A DNA stretch of 64,000 bases, taken from contig JACOXY010000012.1 in NCBI GenBank assembly GCA_016182095.1, positions 25,864-89,863 of the forward strand. The letters run 5' to 3'. Source of the stretch: Candidatus Liptonbacteria bacterium (GTDB lineage: Bacteria; Patescibacteriota; Minisyncoccia; UBA6257; JACOXY01). A model generated the notes under the pieces. That model was given only the letters and a program-made list of their open reading frames with translations, did no database searches and was not told the DNA's origin. Shown here in pieces: positions 3,719-63,044 of the stretch. The position numbers and the translations under genes are program-made. The stretch's first letter is position 1, and every line of letters starts with the position of its first letter.

Positions 3719-5152
3719 CTACCAGGCGTTCCAAATCGGATCTTTGTTTTCAAAACATCCAAAACAGAAATCATTTTCAGCTCCGCGGTTTCTTTTCAGC
3801 ACTCTAAGCGCCTCCTTCAGATCTTCAATAGTTGCGTAATACAGGCGATCCGCTTCAATATCTTGCCTTATCTTCTCAATATCCGGCTCCCCACCCACGG
3901 CATATTTCGCGGCTATCAGGTCATTGTCAAAATCAACGCCCTTCTTGCATGGCCCTATAATCGGCGGTGAAGCGGAAATCATCCTTACTTCTTTAGCTCC
4001 CATGGAGCGAAGCGCCCGGACAACCCGCCGCGAAGTTATTCCCCTTACAATAGAATCATCCAGGCACCAGACCACCCGGTCTTTTACCTTGTTTTTAGCA
4101 AAACTGTGCTTTGTGCGCGTGGTATATTCGCGCTTTACAGTTGTGTCCTGAGTAAAGCTTCTGCCGAAGTGACGCCGCACTATCACTCTTTCCAAAGGGA
4201 TCTCCAATGCTTTGGCAAAACCATCGGCAAAAGAGTTGGAAGAGTCGGGAACATTTGTAATCACATGTTCCAGCTTTACTTCGTGGCCGAGGCGATTCGC
4301 CACTATCCCGCCAAGTTCTTCGCGAAATTCACACACAGGGATACCAAAAATTGTTGAGTTTGGAAACGAAAAATAAATCAGTTCAAACATGCAGGCGTAA
4401 AGCCGCGGAGGTACGCCATTAATAGAGCCAGCCGGTATTTTAGAGGAAGTAATGCCGCCCTTGGATACCACAACCATTTCGCCGGGATTTATTTCTCTTA
4501 AAGTTTCACCGCCAACTGCTTCAAAAGCGGTATCCTCCGAAGCCACTAGATATCCGCCATTCATGGAACCAAGAACCAGCGGCCTGTTGCCGCTTGGGTC
4601 TCGCGCCGCCACAAGATAAGCTACTCCATTAACTTGTAAAAGCATGGTAAGCGCGTATGTTCCCCTATAACGCGAAAGACCCTGTGAAATAGCCGAGAAT
4701 GGATCACTGGATTTTGCTTCCCCGATAAACTTCAGGATTAATTCCGTATCGGATGTTGTCCCGAAAACCGTCCCCGAAACCAAAAGTCCTTGCTTCATTT
4801 GATCATAAAATGGCGTGTCGCCATTATGCGCGATATATATTGACCAATTCTCTTTATGGGCGGCAAGGGGCTGCGCATTCTCGCGCGACTGCCTGTCTCC
4901 AGAGGTGCCATAGCGCAAGTGCCCGATCCCAGCGAAAAAATCATCGCCCCTTTCTCTCTGCAAAGATTCAAAGCCAACCTTGCGGGCAAGATCGGTAACG
5001 CGATCAAGTTCTCGTTCATAAAAAATTTCATTGTTCTTGTCCGCCAAAACTACGCCCGCGCTCTGTTCCCCTCGGTATTGCATGGCATGCATCATCTGGA
5101 ATGTAACCTGGAGCGCGTTTTTTATCCCAAAAACTCCAGCCACCCCGCACAT
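3719..5152 (-). CDS. purF: amidophosphoribosyltransferase-like class-II glutamine amidotransferase
   Basis: N-terminal MCGVAGVFG (Ntn Cys). C-terminal PRTase motif VVWCLDDSIVRGITS. Start trimmed to the MCGV methionine. Confidence 0.75.
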   Translation of the reverse strand: MCGVAGVFGIKNALQVTFQMMHAMQYRGEQSAGVVLADKNNEIFYERELDRVTDLARKVGFESLQRERGDDFFAGIGHLRYGTSGDRQSRENAQPLAAHKENWSIYIAHNGDTPFYDQMKQGLLVSGTVFGTTSDTELILKFIGEAKSSDPFSAISQGLSRYRGTYALTMLLQVNGVAYLVAARDPSGNRPLVLGSMNGGYLVASEDTAFEAVGGETLREINPGEMVVVSKGGITSSKIPAGSINGVPPRLYACMFELIYFSFPNSTIFGIPVCEFREELGGIVANRLGHEVKLEHVITNVPDSSNSFADGFAKALEIPLERVIVRRHFGRSFTQDTTVKREYTTRTKHSFAKNKVKDRVVWCLDDSIVRGITSRRVVRALRSMGAKEVRMISASPPIIGPCKKGVDFDNDLIAAKYAVGGEPDIEKIRQDIEADRLYYATIEDLKEALRVLKRNRGAENDFCFGCFENKDPIWNAW

Positions 5153-31878: not shown

Positions 31879-32595
31879 ATGAGCATAAATAATCGCACTT
31901 CTACTACCCGGCAGGCGGTGATACTCGCGGCTGGCAAGGGCACAAGAATGCTTCCCTTTACGCAAAGTGTTCCTAAGCCGCTTATGGAACTGAAGGGCAG
32001 GCCGCTTCTGGAATACACCATGCTCGCGTTGCCGAGAGAAGTAAGCGAAATAATTTTGGTTGTGGGATACATGGGAGACCAGATTAAGAATCGCTTCGGC
32101 CGTCGTTTTCAAAATTACAATATTTTTTACGCCGAACAGAAAGAGCCGAAGGGAACTTTTAACGCTCTCGTGGCCGCATCATCAATGCTTCGCGACAACT
32201 TCTTGCTTTTGATGGCCGACGATATCTATTATCGTGACGATATAGAGAATATGGCAAGATACGAAAACGCGATTCTCGTCAAAAAATTAACCGGCAACTC
32301 CGAAAAGTTCGGGCACTGTATAGAAAAAAGCGGCCTTTTACGCGATTTGCTTGAGAAACCAAAAGGCATCCCCAATCCACTGGCCTGTTGCGGCGCCTAT
32401 AAGTTATCAAGAGAAATTTTAAATGAACCGATAATTTACGGCCCAAACGGCGAAGAAGTGCTCTCTCCAATGATTGGTACTTTCGCTAAAAAAATGCCCA
32501 TACATGTAGTAGAGGCAAAATTCTGGCATCCAATCGCGACCCCCGAAGACCTAAAAACCGCAGAACAACATTCTAACATTCGCAATAATGTTTGA
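31879..32595 (+). CDS. sugar-phosphate nucleotidyltransferase
   Basis: AVILAAGKGTRMLP NTP-transferase motif. Confidence 0.7.
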   Translation: MSINNRTSTTRQAVILAAGKGTRMLPFTQSVPKPLMELKGRPLLEYTMLALPREVSEIILVVGYMGDQIKNRFGRRFQNYNIFYAEQKEPKGTFNALVAASSMLRDNFLLLMADDIYYRDDIENMARYENAILVKKLTGNSEKFGHCIEKSGLLRDLLEKPKGIPNPLACCGAYKLSREILNEPIIYGPNGEEVLSPMIGTFAKKMPIHVVEAKFWHPIATPEDLKTAEQHSNIRNNV

Positions 32596-32710
32596 ATGTT
32601 GTAGTTAAGAATTCTAACTTTGGGCTTGTGCTCACACCGACTCATTCCGTCCAAATGAGACGGTTAAACTTGGAATTTGGCTTTTTTGTGGTTATAATGA
32701 GGTGAATTAT

Positions 32711-42670: not shown

Positions 42671-42693
42671 CATTGAGCTTATTATGCAGTTTA

Positions 42694-42727
42694 AACATTC
42701 TAACATTCTTGAGAATGTTAGAATGTT
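42694..42727. promoter_or_regulatory. 34-bp palindrome (15-bp perfect arms, 4-bp spacer) downstream of the ArsR-like gene
   Basis: aacattctaacattc-ttga-gaatgttagaatgtt. Confidence 0.6.
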
Positions 42728-42738
42728 TATTGATGAAA

Positions 42739-43024: not shown

Positions 43025-43058
43025 AGTTTTCCAAAACATTCTAACATTCTCAAGAATG
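43025..43058. promoter_or_regulatory. 34-bp palindrome upstream of the ArsR-like gene (putative operator)
   Basis: aacattctaacattc-tcaa-gaatgttagaatgtt; same arms as 42694-42727 with the spacer inverted. Confidence 0.6.
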
Positions 43059-43186
43059 TTAGAATGTTTTGGAATGGGTAATGAGTGGATAAGAAACCTT
43101 TTGCATTAAACTATGTCAGTAAATGGTTAATACAAGAATGTCGTAATGTTGTGGGCAAGATTTTAAGGTAAAAATCGCTCCGATGT

Positions 43187-52907: not shown

Positions 52908-52935
52908 GCAAAAAAACCAGGCTATTTCCTGGTTT
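52908..52935 (-). terminator. rho-independent terminator after the higA-like gene
   Basis: Minus strand: aaaaccagg-aaatag-cctggttttttt. Confidence 0.55.
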
Positions 52936-53203
52936 TATCGTAGTCTTTTTGCAAATTAAGCCAAAATTCGGGACTCATATTGAAGAAGTGCCCAAGACAA
53001 AGAGAGGTTTCGGAATTAACGCTCGCGTCCCCAGCGATCAAGCCATTAAGATAGGCCTCGTTTAGCCCCGTACCTTTTGCCACCGCTTCTACATCCAGAT
53101 TATTCGGCTTCATAAATTCTTCCAATAATACCTCTCCTGGATGAACCTCCAGCTTTGCGAGCTTCTTCTTGTGCCTAATTTCCTGCCGAATCCTTGGCGT
53201 CAT
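52922..53203 (-). CDS. higA: HigA-family (Xre HTH) antitoxin-like protein, orphan
   Basis: HPGEVLLEEFMKP...GLNEAYLNGLIAG...SPEFWLNLQKDYD is the HigA/VapI signature; no HigB/RelE-like partner found. Confidence 0.65.
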   Translation of the reverse strand: MTPRIRQEIRHKKKLAKLEVHPGEVLLEEFMKPNNLDVEAVAKGTGLNEAYLNGLIAGDASVNSETSLCLGHFFNMSPEFWLNLQKDYDKTRK

Positions 53204-53234
53204 TATTGCCCCCATGCGCAAACGATCTGGAGAG

Positions 53235-53264
53235 ATTATAACAAAGGGACGCCTTCTTTGTCAA
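53235..53264 (-). promoter_or_regulatory. sigma70-like promoter (TTGACA-18-TATAAT) for the higA-like gene, abutting repeat element A
   Basis: Reverse complement reads ttgaca-aagaaggcgtccctttgt-tataat. Confidence 0.5.
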
Positions 53265-53458
53265 CCAGGTAGTAGAAATGCGAGTGAAGTTTTTGAAAAA
53301 TATGGTAACACCATCGATCAAATCCACAGAGATATTATCGGTCAGTATTTATACCCGATCGATAACAATCGATAACCTCGTCAATTGAACGATCGTTTGT
53401 TATACGAGGTCTTGGAGTTGGTAGAAAGAAATGCTCGTATTTTCACTACCTGGTCAAG
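53263..53458. mobile_element. ~196-bp MITE-like element A with terminal inverted repeats
   Basis: The ends ccaggtagtagaaatgcgag / ctcgtattttcactacctgg are inverted copies. The core (~130 bp) is 95%+ identical to the reverse complement of 62259-62390. Confidence 0.6.
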
Positions 53459-53478
53459 CACACACCCAACTGCAAGCA

Positions 53479-54387
53479 CTAAACTTTCAAATACTTTCTC
53501 ATCGCCATATAGCTGGAAACTACTCCCAGTACTACTCCAAAGGCAATTTGATACAAAAGAAGCAGGAGGAGATTAGTTATAAAATATCCCCGTAAGTCAA
53601 TTTCGGGTATAAAAACGTTTATATAAGGCGACCCAAAGAAAATCGCCGGAGCGGCTATCACCAAACTTAAAACCGCGGCCAAAGCTCCATACAAAATCCC
53701 CGTGACCACATAGGGACCTCTTATAAAAGAGTTGGACGCGCCAACAAGCCGCATAATACCTATTTCTTCGCGGTCGGAAAAAATGGCAAGGCGAACAGTA
53801 TTAAAAATAACAAGGCCGGCTATTAGAGAAAGGAACAGTGTAAGGAGCGTTCCGGCTTTTTCCACGGTATCAATTACCTGCGCCAGCCGCTCTATTACGG
53901 TTTGGTTTTGGAAAAAGCTTACCTTCTCAACTATCGGCTCCAGAGTTTTGGTATTTAAATACTCGGATATAGTGGCATATTGGCTCGGATCGTGCGCTTT
54001 TATATTTAAGGCGGCGGAAAGCGGGTTTTCGCCCAATTCGGCAATGGCCTGGGTAATCGTTTCGTCTTCGGCATGATTCCCCTTAAATATTTCCAACGCC
54101 TTATCGCGCGATATGTATTCAACGCTTTTTACCTCCGACAATCCCTCTAAAGAGCGTTTTATGCGGAGAATTTCGTCCTCCGGAGCCGATGTCTTAAAGT
54201 AAACACTAATGTCAATCTTATCTTTCAAAACGGTAAGCGCGCTTGTTGTGAGATAACTAAAAACATTAACGCCTAAAAATACGATAAGTGCGATTATCAT
54301 AACCGCAACAGTCGCAACCGAAAGCAAACTGTTCCTCTTAAACTGCTGAAGGCCGTGCTTGATGATCCTGAAAATTATAGTAATCAT
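53479..54387 (-). CDS. ftsX: cell division ABC transporter permease FtsX
   Basis: Four-TM FtsX-like topology with a large loop; paired with ftsE. Confidence 0.75.
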   Translation of the reverse strand: MITIIFRIIKHGLQQFKRNSLLSVATVAVMIIALIVFLGVNVFSYLTTSALTVLKDKIDISVYFKTSAPEDEILRIKRSLEGLSEVKSVEYISRDKALEIFKGNHAEDETITQAIAELGENPLSAALNIKAHDPSQYATISEYLNTKTLEPIVEKVSFFQNQTVIERLAQVIDTVEKAGTLLTLFLSLIAGLVIFNTVRLAIFSDREEIGIMRLVGASNSFIRGPYVVTGILYGALAAVLSLVIAAPAIFFGSPYINVFIPEIDLRGYFITNLLLLLLYQIAFGVVLGVVSSYMAMRKYLKV

Positions 54388-54393
54388 ATGAAT

Positions 54394-55110
54394 TTACACT
54401 AACACAAACTTGCCCCTCTCCTCATCCCTTATAATTCTGCCGCCGTCTAATGTGATCACGCGGCGCCCTAAGTTATTCACAATTTCCTTGTCATGAGTCG
54501 CGAGAATTACCGTTGTCCCCAGTTCATTGATTTTGTGAAGCAATTTGATAATTTCCCACTTGTTGAATGGATCAAGATTGCCGGTCGGCTCATCAGCCAT
54601 TATCACCTCCGGATGGTGTATCATGGCGCGGGCTATGGCTACTCGCTGTTTTTCGCCGCCAGAAAGCTCTCTTGGGAAATTCGTCATCTTATCTTTTAAT
54701 CCTACCATCTCCAGGGCTTGCGGCGTAAGTTCTTCAATATCGGCCTGCGGATAACCTGATGCCTCAAGAGCGAAAGCGACATTTTCAAAAGCGTTGCGAT
54801 TTTGGAGCAGTCTAAAGTCCTGAAAAATTACGCCGATATGCCTTCGGAGCCCAGGCAGGGAAGACGGGGGCAGTTTATTAACTTCATAAGAACCGAAAAT
54901 AACCCTGCCTTTTGAGGGAGTTTCCTCGCCTATCAAGAGCTTCAGAACCGTAGATTTGCCGGCTCCGGACCGCCCCACTAAAGAAACAAACTCGTTTGGT
55001 TCAATCTTGAAAGTTACGTCCTGTAGGGCGTGAGACTCGCTATTTACACTGCCATTGCCGTTGTAATATTTTGAAACGTTTTGAAATGCTATCATGCCGT
55101 TTTTGCCCAA
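54394..55110 (-). CDS. ftsE: cell division ABC transporter ATP-binding protein FtsE
   Basis: GRSGAGKST; [15 protein letters not shown]; [11 protein letters not shown]. Confidence 0.8.
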
Positions 55111-55381
55111 GAGCTGGAGCGATTGGCTGCAAAACCGAGCACCCCGCCCTCTATGCTTAAAATTAAGTAACTATTTTATATTACACCATCGGACGCAGTT
55201 TAGCAATACACAAAATTAACACCCGCAGAGGGCGGGATACAGCTTTTATAGAAGCTTATAAAATTCGCTTATAAAAGCTGTAACTCGCTTTCAATAAAGA
55301 TGTCCAATGTCCGATTTCCACACAAAAAAACCAACCCGGAAAAGGTTGGCTGATGCCGTGTTAATTCAGTTTTCCGATTTT

Positions 55382-55663
55382 TCAGCTATAAGAAATCCTA
55401 TAGTGACGCTCAAATGCGCTGGCAAACACAACCACCAAGAAAGCAACACAACCCGTAATAAGAAATCCCAGGATCCAAAAGAGAATCCAAAATACAGACG
55501 AAATGGCAGGAACAACTGGAACCCAGAAAAGTGCGCCTACATCATGAAAGGTTATATAACAACGCTCGCAAGTGTCAAAAACATACCAAACCAAAACAGC
55601 AGTAAGCGCAAAAAACATCAATACACACAACGCCATAAAGCTCCAATGGAAGATATGAGCCAA
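55382..55663 (-). CDS. small membrane protein
   Basis: 93-aa hydrophobic ORF on the operon strand; preferred over the low-complexity plus-strand ORF 55307..55783. Confidence 0.35.
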   Translation of the reverse strand: MAHIFHWSFMALCVLMFFALTAVLVWYVFDTCERCYITFHDVGALFWVPVVPAISSVFWILFWILGFLITGCVAFLVVVFASAFERHYRISYS

Positions 55664-55686
55664 CTACCCAAAAGATACTCACGGTA

Positions 55687-56767
55687 TTATTTCTTGTCAA
55701 ATCTTAATTCCGCTTCTATAAATTGGTCTATATCTCCGCTTAAAACCTTCTCCGCCTGCGAGGTTTCCGCCTCCGTCCGATGATCTTTTACCATTTTATA
55801 GGGATGCAGGACATATGAGCGAATCTGACTCCCCCACTCCGGCTTTACTTTGACGCGGAGGTCGCTTAATTCTTTCGCTTCGCGCTCTTGCATTAGGGTG
55901 AATAATTTTGCCCGCAAAAGTTTCATGGCATTCTCTCTGTTTTGCGCTTGTGAGCGCTCCACTTGGCTTGCGACAGAAATGCCGGTTGGAATATGCGTAA
56001 TGCGCACCGCCGTTTCCACTTTATTTACATTCTGCCCGCCAGGTCCGCCCGCGCGAAAAAGATCAATTTTTAAGTCCTCCTGCGGAATTTGAATAGCCGC
56101 TTCCTCAACTTCCGGGAGTTCGGGTAACACCTCAACGAGCGCGAAAGAAGTATGACGTAGTTTTTTTGGCGAAAAAGGAGAAATACGCACCAGCCGATGC
56201 ACCCCTGCCTCTTTTTTTAGATAGCCGTAGGCGTGGTCGCCCTTAATTTCGAGCGTCGCGTTCCGCAGAGGGTGGCGCCCTGTTTTTGATTGAAAATCGT
56301 GGATAGCCTCGTGCACCAGGCGCGTCTTCCACCCGCGAAGAGCGCAGTATTTTTGATACATTTCGAGTAGCATCGCGGTCCAGTCCGCGGCGTCTTCCCC
56401 ACCCGCGCCAGAATAGACCGAGAGCACTGCCGATTGCGCGTCATACTTCGCTCTAAAAAGCCGCTCTATTTCCAACGCCTGAAACAGCTTTTTTGCGGCA
56501 GAATAATCCTCCTCGTTCGGGTTTTCTTTAAGTCCAGCCGCGCGCCCTTGAACATCATAAAACCTGTCCAGCAAGTTTTTTAACTGGCCATATTCTTTTG
56601 TTTTATTTTCCGCTCGCCCGCGATCTTTCCAGAGATCCGGGTCGGAAATCGCGAACTCAAGCTCTTTAAGTTTTGTGCGTTTAGTTTCTACGTCAAAGCC
56701 ACCCACCTACGCGGTGGGTATTTTCAATTAGTTCTTCTATCGCCTTTTTTAGTTCATCGTGGGTCAT
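55687..56767 (-). CDS. prfB: peptide chain release factor 2 with a programmed +1 frameshift
   Basis: Frame-0 [27 protein letters not shown] ends at CTT TGA C (56692-56698) and is preceded by the SD-like AGGTGGG. The +1 frame continues as DVETKRT...; SPF and GGQ motifs present. Confidence 0.85.
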
Positions 56768-57175
56768 AAGAATAGGTTATAGTGGATAGTTTGTAGTTTA
56801 TAGAAAAAGCTTAATACAAAAAATAAAATAAATCAAAATCTGCCTTGAGGCAGATTTTGATTTATAAATTTGCGCAAAGTTGTAAGTTACTCGTCGTCTG
56901 GGTCAGAAATTTTACGATCGCCCACAAACAAACTGCTACCCGTTGAACCGCCACCCCTCAATCCCTCCATGCCATCATTTAGATTCCCACCGCCACCCTT
57001 TGGCCAATAATACAATGATTTTCCTTTCATAATTATTGATAAAAGTTGTTATAAAACTAACGACCTTTATGTATTAATAATACTGCAAAAGCTGGACAAG
57101 CGCAACAACAACATATTGAAATTATGTGCAGGTATGATAAACTCTCACAAGTACTGCGAATAGGGAAATGGTAAG

Positions 57176-57457
57176 ATGGATCCGGTCAGTGGACTTGAGA
57201 ACAAATCGGTAGTTGCCTCTAAAGATTATCCTGATTATTTCTGGTCCGGAGAAGATTTTGAAACCACCGATGGTGAAAATCTCGAAAAGTCGCTCGTTCC
57301 TGAAGTCGCGCGGCAGACAGCAGATTCTCCAAACGGAGCCACGCCAACCACAGAAAAAAAGGACCGCCCAAGACGAAACAAACGCGCGGAAATGTTAGAA
57401 AAATTTAGGATATTAAAGGCAAGAAAAAAGAAAAGGCAAAATACGCCCGCCCAATAA
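57176..57457 (+). CDS. hypothetical protein
   Basis: 93-aa ORF. Confidence 0.35.
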   Translation: MDPVSGLENKSVVASKDYPDYFWSGEDFETTDGENLEKSLVPEVARQTADSPNGATPTTEKKDRPRRNKRAEMLEKFRILKARKKKRQNTPAQ

Positions 57458-57480
57458 GCGGGATTTTGTATTAGATTAAG

Positions 57481-58161
57481 CTATTTTTTTGCTTTCTCCT
57501 TTTTCTCTTCCTTAAACAGCACGAGGAGTCTTTCTAAATATTCATTGGCCGTTCTTCTTCCCCGCTCATCAGCCATGCTCTGAATAGCTGACTTTAATTT
57601 TTCTTCTTCAAAGCCAAGAAAGGCAACCTCGTCCGAATAAACTGTCCAGGGGCGAAACGTCTCAAGATAATAAACATTGCCATCCTTTCCTCTAGAAAAG
57701 TTAGCCACAAAAGAATCTATACAGTCGCCCAAACCAAAACCTTCAAGGCGTTTTTCCAAATCACGTGCTCCTTCTTTAAGCTCCTTGTTCAGCATGCGGT
57801 ATCCCCTATCCCAGTATTCGTCGCCTTTTTTTTGTTCTCTTCTATCAGAAGCATTAGAAAATTCCACTCCTTCCTGCAAAACACTTTGTCCCTCTGTGTG
57901 CGCGATTCGATCTGTATCTGCGGTTTGAATCTTGTCCGCAGATTCTGTTACTTGATGTATATCGGGAATATTATCGGGAAATAGCAAGTGAGCAATTTTC
58001 GTTAAATAAAACCTGCCTTTCATCTGGCGTAAAGTTTCATTTAGTCCCGGGCGCATTTCCGCGATAATTCTGCCTTCATTTTTGGGGTCCACAAAAACTC
58101 TTTTTTCACCTCCTTGCCCAAGCGGCACCAATCCTTCTGATTCAAATTTCCTGGTTCGCAT
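57481..58161 (-). CDS. hypothetical protein
   Basis: 226-aa ORF, no confident family assignment. Confidence 0.45.
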   Translation of the reverse strand: MRTRKFESEGLVPLGQGGEKRVFVDPKNEGRIIAEMRPGLNETLRQMKGRFYLTKIAHLLFPDNIPDIHQVTESADKIQTADTDRIAHTEGQSVLQEGVEFSNASDRREQKKGDEYWDRGYRMLNKELKEGARDLEKRLEGFGLGDCIDSFVANFSRGKDGNVYYLETFRPWTVYSDEVAFLGFEEEKLKSAIQSMADERGRRTANEYLERLLVLFKEEKKEKAKK

Positions 58162-58188
58162 ATTTGAATTTAATTCTAAAAAAAATTA

Positions 58189-58262
58189 TGGAGCCGAAGG
58201 CGAGAATCGAACTCGCGTCTTTCGCTTACGAAGCGATTGCTCTGCCACTGAGCTACATCGGC
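58189..58262 (-). tRNA. tRNA-Thr (anticodon CGU)
   Basis: Reverse complement gccgatgtagctcagtggcagagcaatcgcttcgtaagcgaaagacgcgagttcgattctcgccttcggctcca; T arm gcgag-ttcgatt-ctcgc; anticodon loop ttCGTaa; CCA encoded. Confidence 0.7.
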
Positions 58263-58340
58263 AAACGGCAATTTTACTTATAACCCCGGCTGACCTGTCT
58301 GCCGGCAGGCAGAGCTAAGGTGGTAATGAAATGCAATTTT

Positions 58341-58802
58341 TTAGTCTCCGGCCAAAATCCGCATTTTTTCATAAATTTCTTTTACAATTTCCGACGGATG
58401 AACTTTTTCTGGATTATACCAAATCTCCCAGGCTGTAAATCCCGTTGGGTCTTTTTCGTCCGGCCAGGGGCCGACCTGGTGGAATCCCTGATATTGTTTC
58501 ATTACAATACCAGCCACCCTGTTAAATAATCGAAACAGTTTCGGATCTTTGGTGTCTAAACCTACCATGTCGCGCTTATCCCCTTGGGCTGGCCAAACAA
58601 AAATTTTTTCCTTTGGCCGATCGTTTGGATTCTTTTCGGCATTATATGCGTTATTTTTTTCATTTTCTACAAGATGTTCAGCAATTTGATAATCTTCTGA
58701 CGTAGCCACCTCTCCCGCAACTGCTCTTAGTTTTTCAGCTTCAATTTCAGCTTCTTCTTTTGTATATCTATTTTTCTCAAAAAAGTCGTGGAATCTCCAC
58801 AT
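58341..58802 (-). CDS. hypothetical protein
   Basis: 153-aa ORF. Confidence 0.4.
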   Translation of the reverse strand: MWRFHDFFEKNRYTKEEAEIEAEKLRAVAGEVATSEDYQIAEHLVENEKNNAYNAEKNPNDRPKEKIFVWPAQGDKRDMVGLDTKDPKLFRLFNRVAGIVMKQYQGFHQVGPWPDEKDPTGFTAWEIWYNPEKVHPSEIVKEIYEKMRILAGD

Positions 58803-58816
58803 AAGTAATATTGGGG

Positions 58817-59236
58817 CTAGTTTTGAATATTCTCGCGTGGTTTGGTGAGCGTTCTAAAAAACAAAGCAAGCGCTCCAAAAGACAGACCAATATCCCTAAA
58901 TGTCACATCATCAACTCCGGAGAGTACTAATATAGAGGTTAAATTGAAAAACGTCAAAATGCTGACAACAGGCAGAAACCAGCCCAAAAGAAGCCCGGCG
59001 CCCAAAAATAAATCAAAAAATGCGTGGAGTATTAGAGCGCTCTCGCGCGGATAAAAATTCTCCACAAATTGCGGCACAAAGCCGATCCAGGCGACAGGAT
59101 TTGCAATAATACTAAAACCTGCGTAAAGCAAAACCACGCCCAAGCCTAAGCGCAAAGCCAGCATATCCCACTTGTCCAACCCCCACGTATTTAATTTATT
59201 GACGACTGGACTTAAAAGCCGAGTTAGGTGGTGCAT
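58817..59236 (-). CDS. DoxX-family membrane protein
   Basis: Four-TM DoxX-like pattern (LRLGLGVVLLYAG...). Confidence 0.5.
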   Translation of the reverse strand: MHHLTRLLSPVVNKLNTWGLDKWDMLALRLGLGVVLLYAGFSIIANPVAWIGFVPQFVENFYPRESALILHAFFDLFLGAGLLLGWFLPVVSILTFFNLTSILVLSGVDDVTFRDIGLSFGALALFFRTLTKPRENIQN

Positions 59237-59355
59237 GTTATTACAATATTAAAAATTAAATATCGAAAATAAAAATACTGGCTGTTTGAAATTTCGGAAG
59301 TGAAATTTCAAACTTCATAAATTTTGATTTTTAGTTTTTGATTTTTTATTTTGCT

Positions 59356-60105
59356 TTAAGCAATAATACCACTTATTAAACTCCCGATAAAGTACGCGAT
59401 AACTGCCGCGAGGCCACCCACAAAGAGCATTTCCAGTCCCGACCAAAACCAGTTTCTTCTTGTAATTATAGTCCTCATGGCCCCAACAGAGAAAAGCGCG
59501 ATCCCGGTCGCAATCGTGGAAATCATAAGCAAGTCGCTTAACACGAAATTCAAGACAATAAATGGCATAATAGGAAGACTGCCGGCCGCGATAAAGGAAA
59601 TAAGGGTGAGCAATGACGCCTTGATGTCACTACCATTGCCGCGAGAAAGGCGAAGTTCATACTTCATCATAAAATCAACCCAGAATTTCTCATTTTTGCT
59701 TATGAGCCGAGTCATGGCCTCCGCGTCTTCCCTGGCATATCCCCTTTCCACAAGGATACTTTTCACCTCCTCTGTTTCATATTTAGGTTTGCGCAGAATC
59801 TCGTCCTCCTCTCGTCTTTCTTCCGTTTTTATCAATGCCCGCTCCGATCGTGACCCCAAATAATTGGAAACGGCCATGGAAAACCCGTCGGCCAAGAGAT
59901 TGGCGAACCCCAAAATAATAATCGTGGCTATGGGCAGTGACGCGCCTACGACTCCGGCCACAACAGCAAAGGTCGTGATAATACCGTCATTCGCCGCGTA
60001 AATAATGTCTTTGATATAGCCAGCTATGCCCTCCGAATGATATTCGTAATGTTTGGATTTATTTATATGCATCTCTAGGTTATAATTATTATAATAATTC
60101 TCCAT
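59356..60105 (-). CDS. VIT1/CCC1-family iron/manganese transporter
   Basis: ANDGIITTFAVVAGV motif and C-terminal TM bundle; start trimmed to MENYYNN so that it does not overlap the divergent znuC-like gene. Confidence 0.6.
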   Translation of the reverse strand: MENYYNNYNLEMHINKSKHYEYHSEGIAGYIKDIIYAANDGIITTFAVVAGVVGASLPIATIIILGFANLLADGFSMAVSNYLGSRSERALIKTEERREEDEILRKPKYETEEVKSILVERGYAREDAEAMTRLISKNEKFWVDFMMKYELRLSRGNGSDIKASLLTLISFIAAGSLPIMPFIVLNFVLSDLLMISTIATGIALFSVGAMRTIITRRNWFWSGLEMLFVGGLAAVIAYFIGSLISGIIA

Positions 60106-60826
60106 GGATAAATCCAGCAATAAAAAAGTTTTGGAAGTAAAAAATCTCTTTGTGCGGTTTGGCGATGATTTGATTATTGATAATTTGAGTTTTGACGTCG
60201 CCAAAGGAGAACACCTTACCATAATCGGACCCAATGGATCGGGTAAGACCACTTTATTTAGGGCTTTAATAGACACCATTCCGCATCAAGGAGAAGTGAT
60301 TTGGGCGCTGGATACCATAATCGGTTATATACCACAGAAATTGGACATAGAAAGAAATGTGCCGCTCTCTCTTTACGATTTTCTGCAGTCAAAAAATAGT
60401 GGCCTTAAAGGGATAGGAGATGGTGAAATAAAAGATTGCTTGAAACTCGTTAATCTTCCAGAGGATATTTTGGGAAAGCCATTGGGGGCTCTGTCGGGCG
60501 GGCAATTTCAAAGAGCGCTCGTCACATTCGCCCTTATCGGAAGCCCAACAGTGCTTCTTTTTGACGAACCAACGGCAGGCATAGACCAACCAAGTGAAGA
60601 GCAGATTTATGACACATTGCACCGCCTGCAGGATGAAAGGGGCGTAACCATCATAACCATTTCACATGATTTAAGTTTGGTGCACCGCCACGCGCACAAA
60701 GTACTATGCCTGAACCGCCGGAAAATTTGCTACGGCCTGCCGGAGGAAGTTCTTGATAAACAAACCCTGTCGCGGCTTTATGGGACCGAGCATCATAAAT
60801 TCTTCCACCATATACATGACAAATAA
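60104..60826 (+). CDS. metal ABC transporter ATP-binding protein (ZnuC/MntB-like)
   Basis: GPNGSGKTT; LSGGQFQRALV; LLFDEPTAGID. Confidence 0.75.
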   Translation: MDKSSNKKVLEVKNLFVRFGDDLIIDNLSFDVAKGEHLTIIGPNGSGKTTLFRALIDTIPHQGEVIWALDTIIGYIPQKLDIERNVPLSLYDFLQSKNSGLKGIGDGEIKDCLKLVNLPEDILGKPLGALSGGQFQRALVTFALIGSPTVLLFDEPTAGIDQPSEEQIYDTLHRLQDERGVTIITISHDLSLVHRHAHKVLCLNRRKICYGLPEEVLDKQTLSRLYGTEHHKFFHHIHDK

Positions 60827-61586
60827 CGAGTTGCTAAGCATAATATTGGCTGCCATAACCGCTCTAGTCTCCGGCGTAGTCGGCTCATTCGCTCTAATGC
60901 GTAAAATGGCGCTTGCCGGAGATGCCTTGTCGCACGTAGCGCTCCCCGGAATCGGCGTGGCCCTTATTTATTCCTTGAACCCCGCGATAGGAGGAGGGTT
61001 GGCGCTTTTAGTGGGAGCTATTTTAATATGGAAAATTGAGAGGGTCACAAACTTAAATACCGAAGCAATAATAGGAGTGCTTTTTGCTGTAAGCTTGGCC
61101 GCGGGAGGACTTCTTATAGAAAGCGAGCATGAGTTGGAAGAAGCACTGTTTGGTGGAGTGGCCACCGTTACGGTAAACGAATTTATCGCGGGAGTAGCCG
61201 TGGCCGTTTTATCGCTTTGGTTTTTGCTTAGAAACCGCCACGCTTTGGTCTTGAGTCTGATATCCAAGGATTTAGCCAAAACGGCTGGAGTAAAAACAGA
61301 AACACAGCAACTTTATTTTCTTTTGATTTTTTCCATAACAGTAATTTTAGGATTGAAATTCTTGGGCGTTCTTTTAATGGGATCGCTCATCATTATCCCC
61401 GCCGCGACAGCGAGAAATGTCACTCAAACCCTAAGCGGGATGCTCGCGACCGCATCATGCACGGCTCTTATCGCAGTTCTTGGCGGATTTGCGGCTCGCG
61501 CGCTCGTGGAAACGGCTCTGGGGCCATCCATCATCAGCATTGCCGGATTAATGTTTTTCATATCGCTTTTGGCAAGGCGAGCTTAA
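60816..61586 (+). CDS. metal ABC transporter permease (ABC-3 family, ZnuB/MntC-like)
   Basis: ABC-3 TM pattern; start trimmed to MTNNELLS. Confidence 0.7.
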   Translation: MTNNELLSIILAAITALVSGVVGSFALMRKMALAGDALSHVALPGIGVALIYSLNPAIGGGLALLVGAILIWKIERVTNLNTEAIIGVLFAVSLAAGGLLIESEHELEEALFGGVATVTVNEFIAGVAVAVLSLWFLLRNRHALVLSLISKDLAKTAGVKTETQQLYFLLIFSITVILGLKFLGVLLMGSLIIIPAATARNVTQTLSGMLATASCTALIAVLGGFAARALVETALGPSIISIAGLMFFISLLARRA

Positions 61587-61650
61587 TAAAGGTGGGGTAA
61601 AAGAAGTTTTGAGCATACATAAATAAAAACCGCCCGAAGGCGGTTTTTAT

Positions 61651-62196
61651 TTATGCCTTATTTTTCAAATATTTTATCATTGTATTTACATCGCTGACCT
61701 CAAACGGGTCATCCGGACAATTATCCGAAAACCCGGGTTCAATAAAAACTTTTTCAATATTGCCGTCCACAACATACATGCTGTAACGCCACGATCTCTC
61801 ACCAAAACCAAGATTATCTTTCTTAACCATCATGCCCATCGCCCTCGTAAAATCGCCGGAGCCATCCGGTACGAGCTTTACCTTGCTGACACTTTGGTTT
61901 TTCCCCCACTGAAACATCACAAAGGCGTCATTCACCGAAAAGCAGTAAACCTCATCCACGCCCAAAGCTTTTAGCTCACCATATCCTTTTTCATAGCCGG
62001 GCAAATGGGTTGACGAGCAGGTTGGCGTAAAAGCTCCGGGAAGTGAAAACACCACCACCTTTTTACCCTTAAATAAAGCGGCGCTTTGAACATCCTGCCA
62101 TCTGAAAGGATTTTCTCCTTGAACACTTTCGTCTCTGACGCGGGTTTTTAAAGTAACATTCGGCACTTTAGCCGGCACATTTGGCATATAATCCAT
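61651..62196 (-). CDS. peroxiredoxin (Prx5-like)
   Basis: VVVFSLPGAFTPTCS peroxidatic-Cys motif; start trimmed to MDYMPNVP, because the upstream MNDRLLYEV... extension is an artifact of reading into repeat element B. Confidence 0.75.
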   Translation of the reverse strand: MDYMPNVPAKVPNVTLKTRVRDESVQGENPFRWQDVQSAALFKGKKVVVFSLPGAFTPTCSSTHLPGYEKGYGELKALGVDEVYCFSVNDAFVMFQWGKNQSVSKVKLVPDGSGDFTRAMGMMVKKDNLGFGERSWRYSMYVVDGNIEKVFIEPGFSDNCPDDPFEVSDVNTMIKYLKNKA

Positions 62197-62258
62197 AAGA
62201 TTGGCTATTTTTATTAATTCTAATAGATAGATTATAAAAAAATATTCACAAAAAATCA

Positions 62259-62445
62259 ACCAGGTAGTGAAAATGCGAGCATTTCTTTCTACCAACTCCA
62301 AGACCTCGTATAACAAACGATCGTTCAATTGACGAGGTTGACGAGGTTATTGATTGTTATTGATCGGGTATAAATACTGAACGAGAAGCAGAAATCGAAC
62401 CCGCGTCTCAACCTTGCCGGGTAGTAGAAGTGCGATTACATTTTT
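62259..62445. mobile_element. MITE-like element B, inverted copy of element A, abutting tRNA-Gly
   Basis: 62259-62390 is about 95% identical to the reverse complement of 53330-53458. A second 20-bp motif copy (ccgggtagtagaagtgcga) lies at 62417. A tRNA-3'-half-like remnant (gcgggttcgatttctgc) lies between them. Confidence 0.55.
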
Positions 62446-62518
62446 GGAGCAGGATACCGGAATCGAACCGGCACTCCAACCTTGGGAAGGTTGTGTACTG
62501 CCACTATACTAATCCTGC
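62445..62518 (-). tRNA. tRNA-Gly (anticodon CCC)
   Basis: Reverse complement gcaggattagtatagtggcagtacacaaccttcccaaggttggagtgccggttcgattccggtatcctgctcca; anticodon loop ttCCCaa; CCA encoded. Confidence 0.75.
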
Positions 62519-62582
62519 ATGAAATCACACCTTCACTAACCGGCCTGGAAAGATCGTATTCTGCCATTCCTACCACGTGAGC

Positions 62583-63044
62583 TTAACAAATATTTTTTGA
62601 GCCGCAATCCGCGATAACCTTGCCGTTTTGCCAAGAAAAATCGGACACTAAAATAATAACCCTTGCGTTACTTCTCGCAAGATGAAGCCAGTCGTCAAAG
62701 ATAACTTTTTCGGCCCGCAGATTATCGGCAAGCATTGCCCTCACTCTGCCGGGCTCTTCTATTTTTCTTATATTTTCCCCAAGCCGACCCACGGCCTCAC
62801 TATAAATTAACTCATCCTCAATCATCTGCTGAAGCGATAATTTTTTGATTTCGTTGTGGCCCACTTCTGCGTCGCCACTCAAACTGCGCAGGTTCGCCTC
62901 CAGCACTCTATTGTATCGATTTTCAGAGAGGAATTTGGAGTTCACAATAACCACAGGAAAATACCCAAACCGTATAAAGGCGAAGCCTGCGAGACCAAGA
63001 AAGATAAGCAATATAAAAGTTATAATATAGAATCGTTTGGACAA
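62583..63044 (-). CDS. membrane-anchored hypothetical protein
   Basis: N-terminal TM helix, 153 aa. Confidence 0.4.
   Translation of the reverse strand: MSKRFYIITFILLIFLGLAGFAFIRFGYFPVVIVNSKFLSENRYNRVLEANLRSLSGDAEVGHNEIKKLSLQQMIEDELIYSEAVGRLGENIRKIEEPGRVRAMLADNLRAEKVIFDDWLHLARSNARVIILVSDFSWQNGKVIADCGSKNIC

What the first reader, a model, noticed from the sequence alone, without database searches (positions are those of the whole stretch)
53263..62445. Two copies of a short MITE-like element (~196 and ~187 bp) in inverted orientation around a 9-kb housekeeping block, next to tRNA-Gly
Element A (53263-53458) has terminal inverted repeats, ccaggtagtagaaatgcgag and its reverse complement. Element B (62259-62445) matches the reverse complement of A's core at ~95% identity, carries an extra 9-bp duplication (gacgaggtt), and contains two copies of the 20-bp motif plus a tRNA-3'-half-like remnant directly beside tRNA-Gly(CCC). 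The intervening 9 kb carries ftsEX, prfB, tRNA-Thr, VIT, znuBC and prx. Inverted repeats of this kind can mediate inversion of the block. The tRNA-adjacent remnant suggests tRNA-targeted integration history. Two ORF-track proteins (53385 and 61651) share the artifactual N-terminus MNDRLLYEVLELVERNARIFTTW because both read into the repeat.
Basis: seen in the sequence. Interest (0 to 1): 0.65.

Follow-up and report, generated by a model that had tools for sequence, protein, structure and literature searches.

The report
Mini transposons, one carrying tRNA-Gly
The two repeats are copies of a small non-coding transposon family of this Liptonbacteria lineage, and a third, overlooked copy carries the working tRNA-Gly(CCC) gene and sits inside the anticodon loop of an older, decayed tRNA-Gly gene, an arrangement that recurs, sometimes nested two or three deep, in related genomes.

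Summary
Element A (53265-53453, 189 bp) has 20-21-nt terminal inverted repeats (TIRs) and a 4-bp target-site duplication (TSD), TCAA. B (62260-~62390) is a truncated inverted copy, 92-97% identical. The motif is not expected by chance (0.00 matches expected, 5 found, plus a sixth degenerate copy). A related MAG (JAUXUB01; LepA 78% identical) and two metagenome contigs hold at least 12 more elements of about 113-147 bp. They share the same two distinguishable ends and have 4-bp TSDs (ATAA, ATGA, TATG, CAAG, TTTA). This is an orphan MITE family: no transposase was found.

Its cargo is the intact tRNA-Gly(CCC). C is inserted at C36-G39 of an older tRNA-Gly gene whose halves are decaying outside it.

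- L011 shows a fresh version. Removing the element and one TSD copy restores a valid tRNA-Gly.
- L026 shows a double nest.
- L028 shows a nest with a different TIR sequence at the same site.
- Some relatives have an uninterrupted gene.

There is no evidence of inversion: the tRNA-Gly-to-prx order matches relatives. The transposition mechanism and the cause of the site specificity are inferred, not shown.

The parts
53265..53453 (-). Element A: a complete 189-bp member of the MITE family. The 'G-end' (CCAGGTAGTGAAAATACGAGC) is at 53433-53453 and the 'A-end' (CCAGGTAGTAGAAATGCGAGT) at 53265-53285. The interior has no ORF and no Rfam match.
53261..53264 (.). Left copy of A's 4-bp target-site duplication, TCAA. 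On the - strand it reads TTGA, the first four bases of the TTGACA hexamer of the promoter-like site for the HigA-like gene 52922-53221.
53454..53457 (.). Right copy of A's target-site duplication, TCAA.
62260..62390 (+). Element B: a truncated A-type copy consisting of the G-end (62260-62280) and about 110 nt of interior, inverted relative to A. It is 97% identical to A over 86 nt and 92% over 50 nt. Its A-end is missing. The inner boundary is ambiguous at about 62385-62395, where it is fused to the old tRNA remnant.
62331..62348 (+). A 9-bp tandem duplication, GACGAGGTT x2, present only in B.
62231..62259 (-). Promoter-like site (TTGATT-17-TATAAT) for prx, directly abutting B's G-end terminus. 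Bases 62256-62259 (TCAA) are the same 4-mer as A's duplication.
53235..53264 (-). Promoter-like site (TTGACA-18-TATAAT, 12 of 12 matches) directly abutting A's A-end terminus.
62417..62543 (-). Element C: a 127-bp family member of the 'type 2' subfamily. Both ends carry G3, G14 and T20. The G-end is at 62523-62543 (CCGGTTAGTGAAGGTGTGATT) and the A-end at 62417-62437 (CCGGGTAGTAGAAGTGCGATT). Its whole interior is the intact tRNA-Gly(CCC).
62445..62518 (-). The intact tRNA-Gly(CCC) gene with an encoded CCA end (Rfam 62.1 bits). It is the cargo of element C.
62378..62416 (-). Decayed 3' half of the older, split tRNA-Gly gene. It starts with CAAG (62413-62416), directly outside C's A-end, and keeps a T-arm, GCGGGTTCGATTTCTGC.
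62544..62582 (-). Decayed 5' half of the older tRNA-Gly gene. It ends in ..TTTCCAGG (CAGG, one change from CAAG), directly outside C's G-end. It is collinear with the perfect outer 5' half in L011.
31891..31911 (-). Solo 'type 2' A-end. A 24-nt stretch, TAATCGCACTTCTACTACCCGGCA, is identical to C's A-end region. It overlaps codons 5-11 of the annotated start of the NTP-transferase ORF 31879-32595. No partner end was found.

Best explanation
The window holds four pieces of one family of miniature, non-coding DNA transposons (MITEs) that is restricted, as far as I could search, to this Candidatus Liptonbacteria lineage and close relatives.

Family anatomy (shown):
- A 20-21-nt terminal inverted repeat of the form CCAGGTAGT-[GA or AG]-AAATGCGAG. 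The two ends are always distinguishable, GTGAAAAT at one end and GTAGAAAT at the other.
- An interior of about 70-150 nt that is free to vary.
- A 4-bp target-site duplication.

The pieces in the window:
- A is a complete copy.
- B is a second, truncated copy of the same subtype in inverted orientation.
- A solo end lies at 31891.
- C is a complete copy whose interior is the genome's functional tRNA-Gly(CCC).

C is inserted between positions 35/36 and 39/40 (duplicating C36-A37-A38-G39) of an older tRNA-Gly(CCC) gene, in the same orientation. The resident promoter and ordinary RNase P and 3' processing can therefore express the cargo, while the split resident gene decays.

Inferred, not shown: the elements are moved in trans by an unidentified transposase that makes 4-bp staggered cuts. 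The tRNA-bearing subfamily has a strong preference for this one site.

The A/B pair is a by-product of two insertions. Both sit exactly at the TTGA of the -35-like hexamer of a promoter-like site, and the duplication or flank keeps that hexamer intact. The pair is not a dedicated inversion switch.
For: 1. Repeats and chance.
2. Target duplications. 10 of 14 complete elements have perfectly matching 4-bp flanks and 2 more match at 3 of 4. The flanks are ATAA x5, ATGA, TATG, CAAG, TTGA and TTTA.
3. Copies elsewhere. The genome-collection scan found 7 contigs of MAG JAUXUB01 with inverted pairs about 100 bp apart. The metagenome scan found L011 and L012. The remaining single hits lie in GC-rich or unrelated coding DNA and fit the handful expected by chance.
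4. JAUXUB01 is a close relative: LepA is 78% identical and the locus is syntenic.
5. The GA/AG asymmetry at TIR positions 10-11 is kept in every complete element seen, including subfamily 1b in L011 and element C.
6. L011 12101-12226 holds a perfect TIR, the duplication CAAG and a tRNA-Gly(CCC) as interior. ARAGORN calls a valid tRNA-Gly(CCC) from the outer halves once the element and one CAAG are removed.
7. The window is collinear with L011 across 5' half, G-end, tRNA, A-end and 3' half. The neighbouring 153-aa ORF and DivIC gene are syntenic.
8. L026 has two successive '5' half ...CCTTCCCAAG | G-end' units before the intact tRNA.
9. L028 has a 142-bp element with a different TIR (CCTCGTTACAAAAGAAGAAG) and a tRNA-Gly cargo at the same position, inside a further outer tRNA remnant.
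10. The orthologous tRNA-Gly is uninterrupted in L023-25 and L030-34.
11. Of 28 tRNA genes in all the DNA held, only tRNA-Gly(CCC) genes have flanking inverted repeats.
12. The cargo is co-oriented with the split gene in all five cases.
13. Independent assemblies confirm the junctions.
Against: - No transposase with matching ends was found in the window. Pfam was run on 40 of the 41 ORFs of at least 170 aa and NCBIfam on the unassigned ones. None was found next to the JAUXUB01 copies either. Mobilisation in trans is therefore assumed.
- The window itself holds only two copies of the A/B subtype.
- Two elements lack matching flanks (L004_194 and L008).
- Recurrent use of one 4-bp site by a transposase that elsewhere accepts ATAA, ATGA, TATG and TTTA is unexplained.
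- Part of the recurrence could be shared ancestry followed by erosion. L021 may hold a very eroded remnant rather than being naive.
- Which tRNA type is donor and which is recipient could not be resolved. The window's cargo is most like L011's outer gene (67 of 74), and the remnants cannot be typed.
Confidence: 0.8

Rival explanations
1. The 20-nt motif is a transcription-factor operator or promoter-associated regulatory site, and the shared DNA is a duplicated regulatory region rather than a mobile element.
For: The motif copies at 53265 and 62260 each directly abut a strong sigma-70-like promoter on the - strand: TTGACA-18-TATAAT and TTGATT-17-TATAAT. The -10 regions are also alike (family D6).
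Against: The shared interior lies in opposite orientation relative to the two promoters. The other copies lie inside an ORF start (31891), inside a tRNA gene (62417 and 62523; L011, L026) and at unrelated sites in another genome. They always come as inverted pairs about 100 bp apart with 4-bp direct flanks. A-right has no promoter beside it.
Confidence: 0.05
2. After a single founding insertion, the nested tRNA arrangement spreads by homologous recombination or gene conversion of the whole allele (half-tRNA, element, half-tRNA) into intact tRNA-Gly genes of related cells. The roughly 36-nt half-tRNA flanks serve as homology arms. No site-specific transposition is involved.
For: All junctions lie at exactly the same nucleotide in the window, L011, L026 (twice) and L028. 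That is what identity by descent of one junction predicts. The same family elsewhere accepts varied 4-bp targets. The window encodes a pilin-like protein and T4SS-like proteins, which is compatible with DNA uptake.
Against: L028 uses a different TIR sequence at the same site, which needs a second founding event at the same 4 bp. The homology arms are very short and only about 70-90% identical between lineages. The duplication CAAG is exactly what a 4-bp staggered insertion gives.
Confidence: 0.15
3. The element inside the tRNA gene behaves as an intron. The long TIR stem is recognised and removed at the RNA level, so both the outer and the inner tRNA are made.
For: In L011 both outer halves are flawless and yield a valid tRNA-Gly when joined. 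Because of the CAAG repeat, the insertion boundaries are compatible with the 35/36 and 37/38 intron positions. Position 35/36 is used by group I introns in Patescibacteria tRNAs (PMC13011429). The transcript is predicted to fold into a 20-bp stem carrying a cloverleaf.
Against: Rfam gives no group I intron match, and at 126 nt the element is too short for one. In the window the outer halves are decayed and ARAGORN finds no tRNA in the reconstructed gene. In L026 no recognisable 3' halves follow the intact tRNA. From my own knowledge, bacteria lack the bulge-helix-bulge splicing endonuclease.
Confidence: 0.04
4. A and B form a functional invertible switch that flips the 8.8-kb ftsEX-prfB-prx block.
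For: About 130 bp of 92-97% identical inverted repeat lies 8.8 kb apart. This is enough for RecA-dependent inversion in principle.
Against: No invertase or recombinase gene is nearby. The orientation in the assembly keeps the tRNA-Gly-to-prx order and direction seen in relatives that lack the elements. B is a truncated remnant. Logan contigs simply break at the repeats and give no linkage information.
Confidence: 0.05
5. The duplication is an assembly artefact.
For: MAG contigs can contain collapsed or chimeric repeats.
Against: Three Logan contigs from two runs are 100% identical to the window. They cover the junctions prx promoter | B G-end (to 62288) and ORF153 | old 5' half | C G-end | tRNA-Gly (to 62445). 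Homologous architectures occur in independent assemblies from other samples (L011, L026, L028).
Confidence: 0.02

Closest known systems
Bacterial orphan MITEs, e.g. Correia/NEMIS elements of Neisseria (own knowledge; not tested against their sequences)
   Same: They are about 100-190 bp long with TIRs of 20-26 nt, a short target duplication and no coding capacity. Many copies lie in intergenic or promoter-proximal DNA. No cognate transposase is known. Their transcripts fold into a long hairpin.
   Different: The TIR sequence differs, and the duplication is 4 bp rather than TA. Here the interiors are very poorly conserved between copies while the two ends keep a fixed GA/AG asymmetry. One subfamily carries a complete tRNA gene.
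Dada DNA transposons of eukaryotes (Kojima & Jurka 2013, PMC3706591)
   Same: They are TIR/TSD DNA transposons that insert at one specific position inside tRNA or snRNA genes.
   Different: Dada elements are autonomous, encoding a DDE transposase. They make 6-7-bp duplications and rely on hundreds of target gene copies to be harmless. The present elements are about 127-142 bp, make 4-bp duplications and hit a gene present once at this conserved locus. They carry a spare copy of the gene they split.
tRNA-gene-targeting integrative elements: prophages, ICEs and genomic islands with attB in a tRNA 3' end (own knowledge)
   Same: They target a tRNA gene and keep the function intact by bringing replacement sequence. 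They leave tRNA-derived remnants at the borders.
   Different: Those are kilobase-scale, encode a tyrosine or serine integrase, recombine at the 3' part of the gene and restore only that part. Here there is no integrase. The element has TIRs and a TSD, inserts in the anticodon loop and replaces the entire gene.
Group I introns in tRNA anticodon loops of Patescibacteria (PMC13011429)
   Same: The phylum is the same, the insertion point is in the anticodon loop (35/36 is compatible with the left boundary here), and the insertion makes the outer gene invisible to tRNA finders.
   Different: There is no group I catalytic core (Rfam negative). The element is 126-142 nt long, has TIRs and a duplication, and contains a tRNA. 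The outer gene decays in the window and L026.

Membership tests
MITE (miniature inverted-repeat transposable element) | Terminal inverted repeats | tested here: met
   A has 20-21-nt arms, 17 of 20 alike. Fourteen complete elements across the window, JAUXUB01, L011, L012 and L028 have them.
MITE (miniature inverted-repeat transposable element) | Target-site duplication of fixed length and variable sequence | tested here: met
   The direct flanks are 4 bp. They are perfect in 10 of 14 elements and match at 3 of 4 bases in 2 more. Six different sequences occur.
MITE (miniature inverted-repeat transposable element) | Small size and no coding capacity | tested here: met
   The elements are 113-189 bp. 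The only ORFs are read-through artefacts. The A/B interior has no Rfam match.
MITE (miniature inverted-repeat transposable element) | Multiple dispersed copies in a genome | tested here: met
   The 64-kb window holds 3 elements and 1 solo end. JAUXUB01 holds at least 10 copies on 7 contigs.
MITE (miniature inverted-repeat transposable element) | Filled versus empty sites among relatives | tested here: met
   At the tRNA-Gly site, the gene is uninterrupted in L023-25 and L030-34 and filled in the window, L011, L026 and L028. Precise in-silico excision restores a valid tRNA. This was not testable for A and B because the look-ups were exhausted.
MITE (miniature inverted-repeat transposable element) | An autonomous partner (IS or transposon) with the same TIRs | tested here: not met
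   No transposase domain was found in the window ORFs or next to the JAUXUB01 copies. No TIR pair lies more than 300 bp apart in any locus. Whole genomes could not be searched, so the partner may exist elsewhere. Orphan MITEs are accepted members of the class.
A named IS family as the source (IS5, IS1380, IS701 and others with 4-bp TSD) | Transposase homology and the family's TIR consensus | not testable with these tools
   No transposase was found and ISfinder is not available. The 4-bp duplication and CC termini are only compatible with several families (own knowledge).
Group I intron in tRNA | Conserved catalytic core (P3-P9) detectable by a covariance model | tested here: not met
   Rfam E-value scans of the window 62200-62640 and of L011, L028 and L029 returned only tRNA-type hits.
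Integrase-mediated tRNA-targeting island or prophage | An integrase gene and a direct repeat of the tRNA 3' end at both borders | tested here: not met
   No integrase domain was found among the ORFs scanned in the window. The repeat at the borders is 4 bp, in the anticodon loop.
Dada superfamily | 6-7-bp TSD and a Dada DDE transposase | tested here: not met
   The duplication is 4 bp and no transposase was found. The Dada features are taken from PMC3706591.

The most novel reading that the evidence does not exclude
A self-compensating tRNA-gene replacement element. These are 127-142-bp TIR cassettes whose only cargo is tRNA-Gly(CCC). They actively and repeatedly home into the anticodon loop (C36-G39) of the resident tRNA-Gly(CCC) gene, in the expressed orientation. 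Each insertion kills the resident copy and substitutes its own, leaving nested layers of dead half-genes. Target choice may be linked to the cargo itself, because family members with other interiors use other sites. That would be a kind of selfish tRNA turnover and horizontal tRNA exchange that I could not find described in the papers searched.
Probability: 0.5. Interest if true: 0.85.

Novelty: new variant of a known kind. Interest (0 to 1): 0.7.

Why it matters
1. Annotation. The element explains false ORF N-termini (53385.., ..62328, probably 31879) and an unannotated dead tRNA gene.
2. Distribution. It documents a MITE family in Patescibacteria. No such family turned up in the two literature searches aimed at this.
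3. Biology. A non-autonomous transposon that splits a tRNA gene present once at this locus yet is harmless because it carries a full spare is a new solution to the safe-site problem. It sits conceptually between tRNA-targeting integrative elements, Dada transposons and anticodon-loop introns.
4. Evolution. Serial replacement implies that tRNA-Gly(CCC) in these lineages is repeatedly exchanged. This bears on tRNA phylogenies and on ideas that split or intron-containing tRNA genes arose from mobile-element insertion in the anticodon loop.
5. Application. If the enzyme can be found, it would be a compact system that inserts at one defined nucleotide of a tRNA gene.

Tried and rejected
- Autonomous partner. 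The solo end at 31891 is not the end of a longer element: the upstream genes are dnaX and a DUF4015 hydrolase. Pfam on 40 of the 41 window ORFs of at least 170 aa, and NCBIfam on the unassigned ones, found no transposase. Ten ORFs beside the JAUXUB01 copies gave none either.
- Known RNA. The A/B interior has no Rfam match and no similarity to anything else held, or to plasmid and phage collections.
- Viral carriers. Two scans of IMG/VR with the motif and with the tRNA|G-end junction found nothing.
- Single motif hits. Those in L006, L009, L010 and L013-L018 were inspected and rejected as chance matches in unrelated, mostly coding and often GC-rich DNA.
- 'Reciprocal' donor and recipient tRNA types. 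The window's cargo resembles L011's outer gene (67 of 74) and the window's 3' remnant shares AGACGCGGGTTCGATT with L011's inner gene. I dropped this as a conclusion because the remnants score similarly against all nine tRNA-Gly genes.
- Homolog searches with the 153-aa ORF and with DivIC gave only 1-2 hits. LepA was the anchor that worked.
- One look-up was wasted by giving prx one codon too many at the 5' end. It was corrected.
- DnaA-box-like targets (TGTGNATAA) of four copies were noted but not pursued.

Full report
**1. The observation**

Reading the two regions and running the repeat finder confirm the finding.
- 53369-53454 and 62259-62344 are 97% complementary over 86 nt.
- 53335-53384 and 62338-62387 are 92% complementary over 50 nt.
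- The offset between the two stretches comes from a 9-bp tandem duplication (GACGAGGTT, 62331-62348) in the right-hand copy.
- Element A has inverted 20-nt ends at 53265-53284 and 53434-53453.
- Allowing three mismatches, the 20-mer occurs five times in the window against 0.00 expected from shuffles.
- A sixth, more degenerate copy at 62523-62543 (-) appears at five mismatches, where 6 hits compare with 0.3 in shuffles.
- The two ORFs that share an N-terminus simply read into the repeat.

**2. It is a family of mobile elements, not a local duplication**

One scan of the species-representative genome collection with CCAGGTAGTRRAAATRCGAG returned seven contigs of a single MAG, JAUXUB01. Most carried two motif copies in inverted orientation about 100 bp apart. 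The metagenome scan added two more such pairs, L011 and L012. The remaining single hits lie in unrelated, often GC-rich coding DNA and match the handful expected by chance for this pattern.

Three regularities appear when all complete elements are put in one orientation.
- The two ends are not equivalent. One always reads CCAGGTAGT-GA-AAATGCGAGC (the 'G-end') and the other CCAGGTAGT-AG-AAATGCGAGT (the 'A-end'). The GA/AG difference is kept in every complete element, including a diverged subfamily in L011 (CCCAGTAGTGAGCCCGCGATA / CCCAGTAGTAGACCCGCGATA) and element C of the window.
- The interiors are about 70-150 nt, AT-rich and poorly conserved.
- The four bases outside the two ends are identical in 10 of 14 elements and differ by one base in two more. 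Their sequence varies from copy to copy: ATAA five times, then ATGA, TATG, CAAG, TTTA, and TTGA for window A.

Matching flanks of fixed length and variable sequence are the signature of a target-site duplication.

The LepA search names the source of the window as a Candidatus Liptonbacteria MAG. It also shows that JAUXUB01 is a close relative, with 78% LepA identity and a syntenic locus. No plasmid, phage or viral contig carries the motif or the element.

Element A (53265-53453, 189 bp, TSD TCAA at 53261-64 and 53454-57) is thus a complete member. B (62260-~62390) has the G-end and about 110 nt of the same interior but no A-end.

**3.

In L011 the interior of a perfect 126-bp element is a complete tRNA-Gly(CCC). 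The DNA just outside the element reads as the two halves of another tRNA-Gly(CCC), split after C36-A37-A38-G39, with CAAG duplicated. Removing the element and one CAAG gives a sequence that ARAGORN calls as tRNA-Gly(CCC).

The window is collinear with this architecture. On the - strand it reads:
- a decayed 5' half (62582-62544, ending ..TTTCCAGG);
- a G-end (62543-62523);
- the intact tRNA-Gly (62518-62445);
- an A-end (62437-62417);
- then CAAGGTTGAGACGCGGGTTCGATTTCTGC.., a decayed 3' half (62416-62378).

The decayed 3' half aligns to nine tRNA-Gly genes with z = 6-12, and the 5' half with z = 2-9. ARAGORN finds no tRNA in the reconstructed old gene. The neighbouring 153-aa ORF and the DivIC gene are syntenic between the window and L011.

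Its cargo is the only intact tRNA-Gly(CCC) at this locus. Both of C's ends share three changes relative to the main consensus (G3, G14, T20). The solo end at 31891-31911 is identical to C's A-end over 24 nt, so C belongs to a distinct 'type 2' subfamily rather than being merely eroded.

**4. The event recurs**

I used LepA homologues to fetch the orthologous locus (LepA, DivIC, small ORF, tRNA-Gly, then often PrsW and prx) from relatives. The states found were as follows.
- L023-25 and L030-34 have an uninterrupted tRNA-Gly tightly packed between ORFs.
- L021 has an uninterrupted gene with, at most, a very eroded trace upstream.
- L026 (JAUXUB01) has two successive units of '5' half ending CCTTCCCAAG, then a G-end', followed by the intact tRNA. 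This is a double nest.
- L028 has a 142-bp element with a different TIR (CCTCGTTACAAAAGAAGAAG / CCACG...) and a tRNA-Gly cargo at the same position (flanks CAAA / CAAG). That element sits inside a further outer tRNA-Gly whose acceptor strands still match.
- L029 has a related remnant.

Among 28 tRNA genes in all the DNA I hold, only tRNA-Gly(CCC) genes have flanking inverted repeats. In all five nests the cargo points the same way as the gene it split.

Occupied and unoccupied loci are interleaved among lineages at similar LepA distance. Combined with the double and triple nests and the second TIR type, this requires several separate events at one 4-bp site.

**5. How it most likely works**

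Shown:
- the TIRs, the 4-bp duplication and the dispersed copies;
- the cargo and the exact insertion point;
- the decay of the outer gene.

Inferred:
- An enzyme acting in trans recognises the two non-equivalent ends and makes 4-bp staggered cuts. No transposase was found in the window or beside the JAUXUB01 copies, so the family is for now an orphan.
- An insertion co-oriented within a transcribed tRNA gene lets the resident promoter drive the cargo, and RNase P with 3' maturation releases it. The predicted transcript is a 20-bp stem bearing a cloverleaf.
- The split resident gene, now useless, erodes. It is intact in L011 and decayed in the window and L026.

Unknown: why the tRNA-bearing subfamily always lands at C36-G39, while copies with other interiors use ATAA-type sites. 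The main rival is spread of the whole nested allele by homologous recombination after one founding insertion. That rival fits the identical junctions but not the second TIR type in L028 or the short, diverged homology arms.

An intron-like reading is unlikely. There is no group I core and the outer halves are decayed. The operator reading fails on the duplications and on the copies inside genes.

**6. A and B specifically**

Both insertions sit exactly at the TTGA of a promoter-like -35 hexamer: TTGACA-18-TATAAT for the HigA-like gene 52922-53221, and TTGATT-17-TATAAT for prx. For A, the duplication leaves the hexamer intact.

B's inner end is fused to the remnant of the old tRNA gene at about 62385-62395. 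In L021, L023-25, L026, L028 and L029 a PrsW protease gene lies downstream of tRNA-Gly, and in L021 and L023-25 it separates tRNA-Gly from prx. That gene is absent from this position and was not found among the window ORFs scanned, so a deletion probably removed B's A-end. PrsW is also absent in the L030-34 group, so this is only suggestive.

The A/B inverted repeat could in principle support RecA-dependent inversion. However, the present orientation keeps tRNA-Gly next to prx as in relatives, and no recombinase gene is nearby. The independent Logan contigs are 100% identical to the window and end at 62288, 62445 and 62485, that is, at or near the repeats. They give no linkage information either way.

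**7. Comparison with known systems, and novelty**

As a MITE, the family meets the structural criteria and resembles orphan families such as the Correia elements.

The tRNA-bearing subfamily combines three features that I could not find together in the library searched:
- it inserts at one position inside a tRNA gene, like the eukaryotic Dada transposons, which however are autonomous, make 6-7-bp duplications and depend on multicopy targets (PMC3706591);
- it preserves function by bringing replacement sequence, like integrase-driven islands at tRNA 3' ends;
- it sits in the anticodon loop, like the group I introns recently catalogued in Patescibacteria (PMC13011429).

I therefore class it as a new variant of a known kind.

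**8. Verdict**

- The structural description carries high confidence.
- The mechanism of movement and of site choice is inferred.

Noticed in passing
window 31879-31914: The annotated start of the NTP-transferase ORF (31879-32595) runs through the solo element end. Pfam homology begins only at residue 13. The first roughly 12 codons, MSINNRTSTTRQ, are therefore probably element-derived or not translated, and the true start may be the GTG at about 31918.
   Followed up: partly
window 52922-53221 (-): The 99-aa ORF immediately left of element A is a HigA-family antitoxin (NCBIfam TIGR02607, E = 3e-19). A therefore sits at the border between ftsEX and a toxin-antitoxin-like module. No HigB was looked for.
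   Followed up: no
window 42692-42729 and 43029-43074: Two copies of a perfect 36-nt palindrome, AAACATTCTAACATTCT..AGAATGTTAGAATGTTT, lie about 340 bp apart. A related AACATTCTAAC motif is visible near 32570-32620. This may be another repeat family or a shared terminator.
   Followed up: no
L001 4124, L002 415, L003 3284, L012 535 (flanks of the ATAA-type copies): Four of eight non-tRNA copies are inserted in TGTG[G/T/A]ATAA|G, the reverse complement of the DnaA-box consensus TTATNCACA. A -10-like TATTATAC lies about 30 nt upstream. Whether this is a target preference or coincidence is unknown.
   Followed up: partly
L028 8268-8712; L029 4040-4150; L026 4793-4830: A further kind of remnant occurs at the same locus. 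It is a tRNA-Gly 5' part ending at ..GACC (or after 12 nt in L026), followed by a hairpin-forming sequence CCAGCACCAAAGCGAAGCTTGGTGCTGG and about 45 nt more. This suggests yet another element type has hit this gene. It has no Rfam match.
   Followed up: partly
L011 12277-12423: A 147-bp element of a diverged subfamily (TIR CCCAGTAGT[AG/GA].CCCGCGATA, TSD TTTA) lies 12 nt upstream of the split tRNA-Gly. The window has a faint trace of it at about 62598-62620 (..TATCGCGG..), inside the 3' end of ORF 62583-63044.
   Followed up: partly
L027 1218-3485 (protein P0005) and protein P0104: Some close relatives encode a LepA of 755-800 aa with a PD-(D/E)XK (PF13366) domain inserted in the GTPase domain. 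This looks like a mobile insertion in a housekeeping gene.
   Followed up: no
window 62199-62445, compared with L021, L023-25, L026, L028 and L029: Several relatives have a PrsW-protease gene downstream of tRNA-Gly, lying between it and prx in L021 and L023-25. The window has only 245 bp there, occupied by truncated element B and the old tRNA remnant. The L030-34 group also lacks PrsW at this position.
   Followed up: partly
window 59244-59353: A 52-nt-arm, AT-rich imperfect palindrome (73% complementary) lies between the DoxX-like gene and the VIT gene (I3). It may be a bidirectional terminator or another structured spacer.
   Followed up: no
L005 4556-4815; L004 170-311: Family members are inserted into or directly beside one another in JAUXUB01. 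In L005 an inner element (4602-4721, TSD ATGA) lies within an outer one. L007 holds a near-copy of the same inner element in a similar flank. This implies that elements insert into elements, or that nested units are copied as a whole.
   Followed up: partly
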